A DNA stretch of 64,000 nucleotides, taken from the human T2T-CHM13v2.0 reference genome, Homo sapiens. Made by a program: the position numbers and the translations under genes. Under the pieces are notes generated by a model. That model was not told where the DNA came from and ran no database searches. It saw only the letters and a program-made list of their open reading frames with translations. Position 1 is the stretch's first letter. Each line of letters starts with the position of its first letter. Positions 60,070 to 61,636 of the stretch are shown here, one piece after another. The stretch covers positions 12,896,001 through 12,960,000 of the forward strand of contig CP086569.2 in the NCBI GenBank assembly GCA_009914755.4, read 5' to 3'.

Positions 60070-60340
60070 CTAAGCAGTCAATGACCCTAATTTCCCAGCC
60101 TCTTATCCTCTACAATCCCCTGAAAAACTACAGCTCAGAACTCCACAAGGAGACAGATTTGAGGGTTTCCTCCCATTTTCTCACTCAGTGTCCTACAATT
60201 ATTAAGCTCTTTCTCTGCTGCAAACCCTGCTGTCTCAGAGTATTGGTTTTTTTACTGTACAGTGGACATTCGGACCCAGTGGTCCCATAACACATAGTTC
60301 AAGACAGATGTTGTTGAGTAAGTCAGGTCCTGCTTGTATG
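60070..60340 (+). repeat. 271-bp direct repeat, copy R1 (unidentified family). Copy R2 lies at 61366-61636.
   Basis: ctaagcagtcaatgaccctaatttcccagcctcttatcctctacaatcccctgaaaaactacagctcagaactccacaaggagacagatttgagggtttcctcccattttctcactcagtgtcctacaattattaagctctttctctgctgcaaaccctgctgtctcagagtattggtttttttactgtacagtggacattcggacccagtggtcccataacacatagttcaagacagatgttgttgagtaagtcaggtcctgcttgtatg. I counted about 12 mismatches in 271 bp against R2. Confidence 0.9.
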
Positions 60341-60438
60341 CACACAAAGTTTCAAAAGAGAGAAGGCTGTAAGATTTCTTCATTGGCTACAAATAAAATG
60401 TCTTAGAAAAAATCCCATGTTACTTACTTCAGTCTTCC

Positions 60439-60618
60439 CAGTGGTTATCAAAATGTGGTACCTGGACCACCCTCATCAGCATCACCTGGGAATTTGTTAG
60501 AAATGCAAATTCTAAAATCCTTCCTTAGACCCAATAAATGAGAAAGAGTGGGATCCAGCTTTGTGTGTTTCAACAAGCCCTCCTTAGTTCTAATCCTCTC
60601 TCAACATTGAGAACCACT
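60439..60618 (+). mobile_element. MER5A-like (hAT-Charlie nonautonomous) element of about 180 bp
   Basis: It starts with cagtggttatcaaaatgtggtacctggaccaccctcatcagcatcacctgggaatttgttagaaatgcaaattct... and ends with ...ctctcaacattgagaaccactg, matching the MER5A termini cagtggttctcaaact...gagaaccactg. Confidence 0.8.
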
Positions 60619-60920
60619 GGTTAGGACTACAATTTCTCTCACCAAATCTCATTCAGATCATGACCTAATTAGCAAACAAGACTACGAGTCATTCCTGGAC
60701 CGACCTGACCTTTTTCTTTATATATACCAAAGCTTTCTGTGTTTCAGCTGACTAAATGAGTGGAATTCAGTATGGAGCAGCCAGTTTATGAGGACACTGT
60801 GAGGATTTAACATATTACGGTGGGGTTGCAGATTAAATCCACACAGGGACTTAAAAAAAATGGAAACATTACAATATAAGATACAGAGATGAAACACTTC
60901 CAGGCTTTAAGAAAATGTAA

Positions 60921-61245
60921 GGCTGAGCACAGTGGCTTATGCCTGTAAATCTAAGCACTTTGGGAGACTAAGGACAGAGGATTGCTTGGGGCCAGGAGTT
61001 TAGACTAGACTTGAGGCTAGTTAAGGCAAAAAAGTGAAACCTTTTGTCTACAAAAAAAAAAAAAAACTAAAAATTTACTTGGGTGTGATGTCATGTGCCT
61101 GTTGTCCCAGCTACTGGGTAGGCTGAGGCAGGAGGATGACGTGAGCCCAGGAGTTTGAGGTTGTAGTGAGCCATGATTGCACCATTGCTCTCCAGCCAGG
61201 GGAACAGAGCAAGGTCCTGTCTGTAAAATAATAATAATAAAATTT
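60921..61245 (+). mobile_element. Alu with an A-rich linker and tail
   Basis: ggctgagcacagtggcttatgcctgtaaatctaagcactttgggagactaaggacagaggattgcttggggccaggagtttagactag...ctgggtaggctgaggcaggaggatgacgtgagcccaggagtttgaggttgtagtgagccatgattgcaccattgctctccagcc...aataataataataaaa. Confidence 0.9.
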
Positions 61246-61365
61246 TACAAAGAACAAAAGAGGATATCTAACAAAATTGAAAGAATGGTATCAGAATATA
61301 ACTTGGGCAAGGTATAACTATATAAATAAGAAGAGGTAGTGGTCCACAGCCTACTTTCTAAACCT

Positions 61366-61636
61366 CTGAGCAGTCAATGATCCCAATTTCCTGACCTCTT
61401 ATCCTCTACAATCCCCTGAAAAACTACAGCTCAGAACTCCACAGGGAGACAGATTTGAGGGTTTCCTCCCATTTTCTCACTCAGTGTCCTACAATTATTA
61501 AGCTCTTTCTCTGCTGCAAACCCCGCTGTCTCAGAGTATTGGTTTTTTTACTGCACAGTGGACATTCAGACCCAGTGGTCCTATAACACATAGTTCAAGA
61601 CAGCTGTTGTTGGGTAAGTCAGGTCCTGCTTGTATG
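61366..61636 (+). repeat. 271-bp direct repeat, copy R2, about 96% identical to R1
   Basis: ctgagcagtcaatgatcccaatttcctgacctcttatcctctacaatcccctgaaaaactacagctcagaactccacagggagacagatttgagggtttcctcccattttctcactcagtgtcctacaattattaagctctttctctgctgcaaaccccgctgtctcagagtattggtttttttactgcacagtggacattcagacccagtggtcctataacacatagttcaagacagctgttgttgggtaagtcaggtcctgcttgtatg. Confidence 0.9.

What the first reader, a model, noticed from the sequence alone, without database searches (positions are those of the whole stretch)
60070..61636. Two 271-bp direct repeats about 96% identical, 1.0 kb apart, whose intervening DNA contains an ancient MER5A
R1 (60070-60340) and R2 (61366-61636) differ at about 12 positions, several of them CpG transitions, and have sharp boundaries, so the flanks do not align. 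The sequence between them contains a MER5A element that must be much older than a 4%-diverged pair, plus an Alu. The interval therefore cannot be the interior of a young LTR retroelement. The candidates are two independent insertions of a young, uncatalogued interspersed repeat, a local duplication of only R, or gene conversion between two old copies. R shows no TG…CA termini, TSD or poly-A that I could see.
Basis: seen in the sequence. Interest (0 to 1): 0.5.

Follow-up and report, generated by a model that had tools for sequence, protein, structure and literature searches.

The report
Local copy of an LTR fragment
A 271-base stretch, made of the tail of an ancient retroviral LTR plus 48 bases of the DNA next to it, was copied once and pasted about 1 kb downstream in a primate genome; this is a small, ordinary repair- or replication-type duplication, not a new mobile element.

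Summary
R1 (60070-60340) and R2 (61366-61636) align without gaps over 271 nt with 13 differences (95.2%). Both edges are sharp, and the window holds no third copy.

R is not an element in its own right. Thirteen unrelated mammalian contigs recovered from metagenome assemblies carry the same old LTR-type repeat, with a median identity of about 69% between copies. In the window that LTR runs 59704-60292, with TG...CA ends and an ATTAAA-type signal.

R1 consists of the last 223 bp of this LTR plus 48 bp of its unique 3' flank. R2 carries the same 223 + 48 bp but lacks the first 366 bp of the LTR. R1 is therefore the native copy and R2 a partial copy placed 1025 bp downstream. The spacer (MER5A, AluJ-like Alu) is older than the copy.

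This excludes a young repeat family, a provirus LTR pair, conversion between independent LTR insertions, and a simple tandem duplication.

R2 has no poly-A and no target-site duplication. The most likely origin is a DNA-templated insertion at a break or stalled fork, roughly 11-25 Myr ago. The only tight palindrome in the 64 kb lies about 90 bp from R2 and may have triggered the event. The mechanism is inferred, not shown. Interest is low.

The parts
59704..60292 (+). Old solo LTR-type interspersed repeat (589 bp). It starts TGTAAAATC and ends CCCATAACA. Reading against the family consensus, it has a CCAAT-like motif at about 60067-60085, a TATA-like motif at about 60116-60130, and ATTAAG (consensus ATTAAA) at 60201-60206.
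   Evidence: Homology with 13 external contigs starts at 59704 (L006) and stops at 60292-60295 in most copies that reach the 3' end. A profile built only from the external copies hits 59792-60292 and ends at the end of the model. Identity to the crude consensus is about 81-83%.
60070..60340 (+). R1, the native (source) copy of the 271-bp duplicated segment. It comprises LTR positions 367-589 (60070-60292) plus 48 bp of unique 3' flank (60293-60340).
   Evidence: It is contiguous and in register with the 5' 366 bp of the LTR in the alignments to external copies. The flank part has no counterpart in any external copy.
60341..61365 (.). 1025-bp spacer that is not duplicated. It holds MER5A-like 60439-60619 and AluJ-like 60921-61241 (+ strand, A-rich tail), and is older than the duplication.
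   Evidence: 76% and about 74% to recalled consensuses. (SRP and mir-544 hits). (the Alu matches other Alus in the window at only 65-68%). The spacer has no similarity to either flank of R.
61366..61636 (+). R2, the derived partial copy. The LTR-derived part is 61366-61588 and the flank-derived part is 61589-61636. The first 366 bp of the LTR are missing. There is no poly-A and no TSD.
   Evidence: 95.2% to R1. (profile hit 61365-61588, model positions 240-462 only). (junction sequences ...CTAAACCT|CTGAGCAG and ...CTTGTATG|TCTCCCC).
61724..61809 (.). Spacer-less palindrome with 43-nt arms that are 91% complementary, flanked by TTAA. It lies 87 nt to the right of R2's 3' junction and is a possible trigger of the break or stalled fork (inferred).
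   Evidence: the only closely spaced inverted repeat of at least 30 nt in the 64 kb. (DNA hairpin -37.9 kcal/mol, z = -10.4).

Best explanation
Shown: an ancient solo LTR occupies 59704-60292. A 271-bp piece spanning its 3' boundary (the last 223 bp of LTR plus the next 48 bp of host DNA, = R1) exists a second time 1025 bp downstream in the same orientation (= R2). R2 lacks the rest of the LTR and the intervening DNA. R1 is therefore the template and R2 the copy. The copy is far younger than the LTR, the MER5A and the Alu around it. Both copies have since accumulated similar numbers of substitutions.

Inferred: R2 arose in one step as a DNA-templated insertion. A broken end or stalled nascent strand at about 61365/61637 primed on the nearby sequence at about 60070, on the sister chromatid or the same molecule. 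It copied 271 nt and was then rejoined to the original site by end joining or a second template switch. This corresponds to SDSA, MMBIR or FoSTeS-type repair. The event left no target-site duplication and no poly-A, and at most 3 nt of microhomology (ACC) with one extra T. The hairpin-forming palindrome about 90 bp away is a plausible cause of the break or stall. Age is about 11-25 Myr from 5% pairwise divergence.

No function is implied. R2 does duplicate the CCAAT/TATA-like and poly-A-signal part of the LTR.

The confidence given (0.62) is for the whole statement including the inferred mechanism. For the shown part alone (R2 is a local partial copy of R1, which spans the LTR/flank boundary) I would put about 0.9.
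For: - The 271-nt pair is 95.2% identical with sharp edges.
- External copies of the repeat were obtained through a pseudo-protein search and a metagenome pattern scan. There are 13 contigs with unrelated flanks. Their homology to the window runs from 59704 up to 60292-60295 and, for R2, only over 61362-61603.
- A profile built from the external copies alone ends at 60292 and at 61588. The last 48 bp of both R copies therefore lie outside the family.
- The window LTR is about 81-83% identical to the consensus, and external copies are about 69% identical to each other, against 95% for R1/R2.
- Polarised differences: 4 derived in R1, 6 sites (4 events) derived in R2, 1 ambiguous.
- The spacer elements are old.
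- R2 has no poly-A or TSD.
- The palindrome is unique in the window and stable as a hairpin.
- Templated insertions from nearby templates, with microhomology, are documented as fixed germline variants (PMC8421209). DNA secondary structures destabilise replication forks (PMC12708500).
Against: - No empty site or orthologous locus could be examined. The insertion point, any deletion at the acceptor site and the true junction microhomology are therefore unknown.
- The 3-nt ACC match at the 5' junction is not better than chance (P=0.39), and the 3' junction shows none.
- The germline templated insertions catalogued in the literature read here were searched for only with templates within about 100 bp (PMC8421209). 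A 271-nt copy from 1 kb away lies outside that search design, and how common such events are was not checked.
- Six of the 13 differences crowd into the first 29 nt (P=0.0013 by sites, 0.023 by events), which a single clean event does not predict.
- The link to the palindrome is post hoc. The chance of such proximity is about 0.4% for one site, before allowing for other features that might have been noticed.
Confidence: 0.62

Rival explanations
1. RNA-templated patch. A piece of a transcript crossing R1 (for example an intronic or read-through RNA) was reverse-transcribed and used to fill a double-strand break 1 kb downstream. This would be a class 2 templated sequence insertion, or endonuclease-independent L1 activity.
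For: R2 has no TSD and no poly-A. It may have a 1-nt filler and at most 3 nt of microhomology. These are the junction features listed for class 2 TSIPs (PMC5110952). The window is rich in L1.
Against: R starts at the CCAAT-like motif, upstream of the LTR's own predicted start site. It runs past the ATTAAA-type signal without a poly-A, so it is not an LTR-initiated mRNA. The TSIPs described are templated from distant regions of the genome (PMC5110952), whereas a template 1 kb away in the same orientation suggests a DNA template. No transcription data are available.
Confidence: 0.12
2. Older duplication of R, later partly homogenised. R2 was made earlier, at a time reflected by the roughly 21% divergence of the first 29 nt. 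Gene conversion between R1 and R2 then reset positions 30-271 to about 3% divergence.
For: The differences are unevenly distributed: 6 of 13 fall in the first 29 nt (P=0.0013 by sites, 0.023 by events). They are derived in both copies. Two direct repeats 1 kb apart are good conversion partners.
Against: Only 29 nt carry the signal, and three of the sites are adjacent and may be one event. The last 48 bp (2 differences) would also have to lie inside the tract. Nothing else requires this model. It changes the date, not the origin.
Confidence: 0.12
3. Tandem duplication of a larger unit (R plus spacer, 1296 bp), followed by deletion of the second spacer; or some other multi-step rearrangement.
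For: Tandem duplication is generally the commonest form of small duplication (my own knowledge; not checked against a paper here).
Against: No trace of a second spacer copy follows R2, and none of a first one precedes R1. A deletion would have had to end exactly at the R2 edge.
Confidence: 0.04
4. R is a young interspersed repeat that inserted twice, or R1 and R2 are the two LTRs of one retroelement.
For: The pair is 95% identical in direct orientation, and the LTR-like sequence has many relatives elsewhere.
Against: The family's ends are 59704 and 60292, not R's ends. R2 lacks 366 bp of the LTR and shares 48 bp of non-family flank with R1. The family is old. No TGG primer-binding site follows the LTR end. 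The interior is MER5A plus AluJ. There is no TSD around R or around R1..R2.
Confidence: 0.01
5. Assembly artefact: one locus was assembled twice.
For: None specific.
Against: There are 13 fixed differences spread over both copies, with derived states in each. The unique, old spacer is consistent with a real structure.
Confidence: 0.02

Closest known systems
Templated insertions by microhomology-mediated template switching (MMBIR/FoSTeS-type; 'MMB-TI', PMC8421209)
   Same: A stretch identical to a nearby template is inserted in direct orientation. There is no TSD or poly-A, and at most a few nt of junction homology. Such events are known to persist as germline variants. A hairpin-forming sequence lies nearby.
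   Different: 271 nt copied from 1 kb away. The catalogued events were searched for only with templates within about 100 bp. Microhomology here is not demonstrable, and the event is old and fixed, so the intermediate cannot be seen.
Class 2 templated sequence insertion polymorphisms (PMC5110952)
   Same: A patch-like insertion without TSD, poly-A signal use or poly-A tail. A possible non-templated nucleotide sits at one junction.
   Different: Those patches come from distant regions of the genome and are thought to be RNA-derived. Here the template is 1 kb away on the same strand, and nothing indicates an RNA intermediate.
Solo LTR of an endogenous retrovirus. The layout resembles class I/ERV1 LTRs (CCAAT, TATA-like, ATTAAA, TG...CA), but that resemblance is recalled from memory.
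   Same: The 589-bp element that contains R1 has TG...CA ends, promoter-like and poly-A-signal motifs in the expected order, and many dispersed copies with the same ends and unrelated flanks.
   Different: This describes the substrate, not the finding. R is only a fragment of the LTR plus flank. The family name could not be determined because no Repbase or Dfam search was available.
LTR pair of a provirus or non-autonomous LTR element
   Same: Two direct repeats of LTR sequence lie about 1 kb apart.
   Different: The repeats are truncated LTRs that extend 48 bp beyond the LTR end. The interior is older than the pair. There is no PBS and no TSD.

Membership tests
Young interspersed repeat (R as a complete element) | Dispersed copies share R's own termini | tested here: not met
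   The 13 external copies share termini at window positions 59704 and 60292, not at 60070 and 60340.
Young interspersed repeat (R as a complete element) | Flanks of independent insertions are unrelated right up to the element's end | tested here: not met
   R1 and R2 share 48 bp (46/48 identical) beyond the end of the family model.
Provirus / LTR retroelement with R1 and R2 as its LTRs | Two complete LTRs with TG...CA ends, of similar age to the interior | tested here: not met
   R2 covers only model positions 240-462. The interior holds MER5A and AluJ at about 75% to consensus, against 95% for the pair.
Provirus / LTR retroelement with R1 and R2 as its LTRs | A primer-binding site (TGG...) just after the 5' LTR, and a TSD around the whole element | tested here: not met
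   CATAGTTCAAG follows the LTR end, with no TGG. The flanks ...CTCCTTACC and TCTCCCCATT share no repeat.
Solo ERV LTR (the 59704-60292 element) | TG...CA termini | tested here: met
   TGTAAAATC...CCCATAACA in the window. The ends TGTGAAATC...CCTGTAACA are seen directly in the external copies that reach them (L006 for the 5' end, several copies for the 3' end). The crude consensus covers only the 3' end.
Solo ERV LTR (the 59704-60292 element) | Many dispersed copies with common ends and unrelated flanks | tested here: met
   12 metagenome contigs plus L001. Several carry Alu, L1 or a host exon-like ORF, so they are mammalian host DNA.
Solo ERV LTR (the 59704-60292 element) | A 4-6 bp target-site duplication | tested here: inconclusive
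   CACA|LTR|CATA in the window (3 of 4 match). L006 and L007 are unclear.
Solo ERV LTR (the 59704-60292 element) | Match to a named Repbase/Dfam LTR consensus | not testable with these tools
   No repeat library is available. The crude consensus is given.
Simple tandem duplication | The copies abut, or the repeated unit includes the DNA between them | tested here: not met
   The 1025-bp spacer is not repeated on either side.
Templated insertion by template switching / break repair | The inserted sequence matches a template nearby; no TSD, no poly-A | tested here: met
   The template lies 1296 bp upstream in the same orientation. Junctions were read.
Templated insertion by template switching / break repair | Microhomology at the switch points | tested here: inconclusive
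   ACC plus one extra T at the 5' junction, no better than chance (P=0.39). No extension at the 3' junction, and the acceptor sequence before insertion is unknown.
Templated insertion by template switching / break repair | An empty acceptor site in an outgroup or another allele | not testable with these tools
   No primate genomes are available. The protein-index look-up and search gave only a paralogous LTR copy.
L1-mediated retrocopy (class 1 TSIP) | TSD of at least 5 bp, a poly-A tail 10-30 nt after a signal, and a TTTT/A target | tested here: not met
   None of these is present at 61365/61366 or 61636/61637 on either strand. Criteria are from PMC5110952.
Ectopic gene conversion between independently inserted LTR copies | The tract is confined to pre-existing homology, with older homology persisting outside the tract | tested here: not met
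   The identity covers 48 bp of non-LTR flank. No residual similarity exists outside R, and no LTR 5' part lies upstream of R2.

The most novel reading that the evidence does not exclude
The 61.3-62.6 kb neighbourhood may be a small germline template-switching hotspot. On this reading, R2 (a direct copy from 1.3 kb upstream), the spacer-less palindrome at 61724-61809 and the further direct and inverted copies of the same 45-88-nt unit at 62437-62549 are products of one or several palindrome-driven replication-repair events. R1 and R2 may have been kept similar afterwards by gene conversion. That would make the locus a fossil record of a complex MMBIR-type event fixed in a primate lineage.
Probability: 0.12. 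Interest if true: 0.3.

Novelty: new member of a known kind. Interest (0 to 1): 0.12.

Why it matters
It matters little beyond annotation. A repeat masker would label both pieces as fragments of the same old LTR family, which hides the fact that one is a recent local copy of the other. Recognising this prevents two errors: dating the pair as an LTR pair, and proposing a new young repeat family.

The locus is a clean, datable example of a non-tandem, sub-kilobase duplication with a nearby palindrome. Events of this size fall below the usual size threshold of segmental-duplication catalogues (my own knowledge) and outside the roughly 100-bp template search distance of the templated-insertion survey read here (PMC8421209).

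R2 also duplicates the promoter-like and poly-A-signal part of an LTR. This could in principle add a regulatory module, but nothing here shows that it does.

Tried and rejected
- Rfam scan of 58-64 kb: only Alu/SRP, MER5A-type miRNA-like and palindrome-type weak hits, and nothing in R.
- Exact look-up of the 69-aa ORF of R1 in the contig index: not on record.
- Viral-contig scan with the LTR pattern: no match. The three genome contigs matches (bacterial MAGs) share only the 23-mer and have no homology to the window, so they are chance hits.
- Search for a third copy of R or of the LTR 5' part in the window: none.
- Test whether the two flanks of R2 join into a known repeat elsewhere in the window or in the fetched loci: the only hit is the local inverted unit at 62471-62549.
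- Extension of the repeat across its edges with gaps: none.
- Search for retroviral ORFs next to the LTR in the external contigs, to assign an ERV class: none (only L1 and a host exon-like ORF), so these are solo LTRs.
- R as an exon was considered, because of an AG...GTAAGT pattern around 60133-60322 read by eye. No frame stays open across it by my reading of the sequence, and there is no conservation of the 3' part outside the pair. The idea was not pursued.
- R as a MITE was considered, because of AAGCAG...CTGCTT at its ends. The match is only 10/14 and the family ends lie elsewhere. Rejected.

Full report
**Observation.** The window carries two direct copies of a 271-nt sequence, R1 at 60070-60340 and R2 at 61366-61636. 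They align without gaps and differ at 13 positions (95.2% identity). Twelve differences are transitions and one is a transversion. Only two lie in a CpG context. A sensitive gapped blastn (word 7) finds no other copy in the 64 kb and no similarity between the 600-bp flanks on either side. An alignment anchored at each junction extends no further than it does into random window sequence (5' side P=0.39; 3' side no extension). The spacer of 1025 bp contains two older elements. One is a full-length MER5A-like element at 60439-60619, at 76% to a consensus I recalled from memory. The other is a + strand Alu at 60921-61241, closest to AluJ at about 74%. Rfam SRP and mir-544-type hits agree. The Alu matches the other Alus of the window at only 65-68%. 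The description is therefore correct, except that CpG decay is not prominent among the differences.

**What R is.** No vertebrate genome database was available, so I used the 69-aa ORF that happens to lie in R1 as a pseudo-protein. An exact look-up found nothing. The homology search returned one 80-aa 'protein' from a 703-bp ENA metagenome contig. At the DNA level that contig (L001) aligns continuously with window 59896-60299 at 74% identity. The alignment reaches 174 bp upstream of R1's left edge and stops about 41 bp before its right edge. With R2 it aligns only over 61381-61595.

A 23-nt pattern conserved between L001 and the window was then scanned in the collections. It gave no match in viral contigs. 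It gave three chance matches in bacterial MAGs, none with further homology. It gave 12 metagenome contigs. All 12 carry the same repeat with unrelated flanks. Several also carry Alu, L1 or a host exon-like ORF, so they are mammalian host DNA.

In the multiple alignment the family begins at window 59704 (TGTAAAATC; L006 has TGTGAAATC). It ends at 60292 (CCCATAACA; other copies have CCTGTAACA), and every copy loses similarity immediately after that point. A profile HMM built from the external copies alone hits the window twice: 59792-60292 (model 6-462) and 61365-61588 (model 240-462). Both hits stop at the end of the model. The consensus shows a CCAAT motif, a TTAAAAA motif, an ATTAAA signal and TG...CA ends, which is the layout of a retroviral LTR. 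The family is old. External copies are about 69% identical to each other, and the window copy is about 81-83% identical to the crude consensus over both its 5' part and the R part.

**Anatomy that follows.** R1 is LTR positions 367-589 (60070-60292) plus 48 bp of the unique DNA that follows the LTR (60293-60340). R2 is the same 223 + 48 bp (61366-61588 and 61589-61636). R1 is in register with the remaining 366 bp of the LTR to its left. R2 has no LTR sequence to its left; the 124 bp between the Alu tail and R2 match nothing. R1 is therefore the native copy and R2 a partial copy of it.

The external copies polarise the 11 differences that fall in the LTR part. Four are derived in R1, six sites (four events) are derived in R2, and one is ambiguous. 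Both copies have diverged about equally since one duplication. Jukes-Cantor distance is 0.050, which gives roughly 11-25 Myr at 1.0-2.2e-9 substitutions per site per year per lineage. The rates are assumed from general knowledge.

**Exclusions.**
- A young interspersed repeat inserted twice is excluded. The family's ends are not R's ends, the family is old, and the two copies share 48 bp of non-family flank.
- A provirus with R1 and R2 as its LTRs is excluded for the same reasons. In addition, no TGG primer-binding site follows the LTR, no TSD surrounds the pair, and the interior is older than the pair.
- Gene conversion between two independently inserted LTRs is excluded by the shared flank and by the absence of any older homology outside R.
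- A simple tandem duplication is excluded because the spacer is not repeated.
- L1-mediated retroposition is excluded because there is no TSD, poly-A or T-rich target on either strand (criteria from PMC5110952). In addition, R starts at the CCAAT-like motif, upstream of the LTR's expected start site, and runs through the poly-A signal.

**Most likely mechanism (inferred).** I propose a single DNA-templated insertion. A 3' end at a break or stalled fork at about 61365/61637 primed at about 60070 on the sister chromatid or the same duplex. It copied 271 nt and was then rejoined. The 5' junction reads AAACC-T-CTGAGC against the donor's TTACC-CTAAGC, which gives at most 3 nt of microhomology plus one extra T, no better than chance. 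The 3' junction shows no extension, but without the empty site its microhomology cannot be read.

Templated insertions from nearby templates are documented as germline variants that accumulate over evolution (PMC8421209). Patch-type insertions without TSD or poly-A form a recognised class (PMC5110952). A possible trigger lies 87 nt to the right of R2: a spacer-less palindrome at 61724-61809 with 43-nt arms that are 91% complementary. It is the only closely spaced inverted repeat of at least 30 nt in the whole window. As single-stranded DNA it folds at -37.9 kcal/mol, with z = -10.4. Hairpin- and cruciform-forming sequences are known to destabilise replication forks (PMC12708500; PMC9199198). 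This link is post hoc and only suggestive.

**Open points.** Six of the 13 differences lie in the first 29 nt of R (P=0.0013 by sites; 0.023 if the adjacent triplet counts as one event). They are derived in both copies. This may be chance. Alternatively the duplication is older and positions 30-271 were later homogenised by conversion between R1 and R2. The RNA-patch variant cannot be excluded without expression data and the empty site. The LTR family and the palindromic unit could not be named because no repeat library was available.

**Verdict.** This is a real but ordinary feature: a small, non-tandem local duplication of an LTR fragment plus flank, of a known mutational kind. Novelty lies only at the level of one more example. 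Interest is low.

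Noticed in passing
window 61682-61809 and 62437-62549: Three to four local copies, direct and inverted at 80-91% identity, of a 45-88-nt unit (TTAACCTATTTACAACCAAGAYGG.GGCCCACTGTGAGTCTCA). The unit occurs nowhere else in the 64 kb. One pair forms the TTAA-flanked palindrome at 61724-61809. It could be the ends of a piggyBac-like MITE or DNA transposon, or further local template-switch products.
   Followed up: partly
window 60070-60098 / 61366-61394: Six of the 13 R1/R2 differences are crowded into the first 29 nt of the repeat, including an adjacent triplet CAG/TGA. 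They are derived partly in R1 and partly in R2.
   Followed up: partly
window 59955-59965 and 60323-60333: An exact 11-mer, TCAGGTCCTGC, is shared by the LTR interior and the last bases of R's flank part. It ends 7 nt before R's 3' edge. This may be chance or a microhomology relevant to the breakpoint (read).
   Followed up: no
window 62297-62428: A fragment of an old L1 3' end. The same piece also lies next to an LTR-family fragment in contig L008.
   Followed up: no
window 1-57200: The window is dominated by L1 fragments on both strands, with many ORF1/ORF2-derived ORFs up to 286 aa. It has about 39% GC and no obvious host exon among ORFs of at least 110 aa. A low-complexity ORF cluster at 6056-6948 on the minus strand suggests a tandem repeat.
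   Followed up: no
L012 93-464 (+): This metagenome contig carries the LTR family and also an ORF that looks like a transmembrane exon of a host receptor gene ([26 protein letters not shown]...). This confirms that these 'metagenome' contigs are mammalian host DNA.
   Followed up: no
window 60081-60290 (+): R1 contains a 69-aa ATG-initiated ORF that is broken in R2. Its only database relative is a spurious gene call on another copy of the LTR. It is not a gene, but it served as a handle to reach related DNA.
   Followed up: yes
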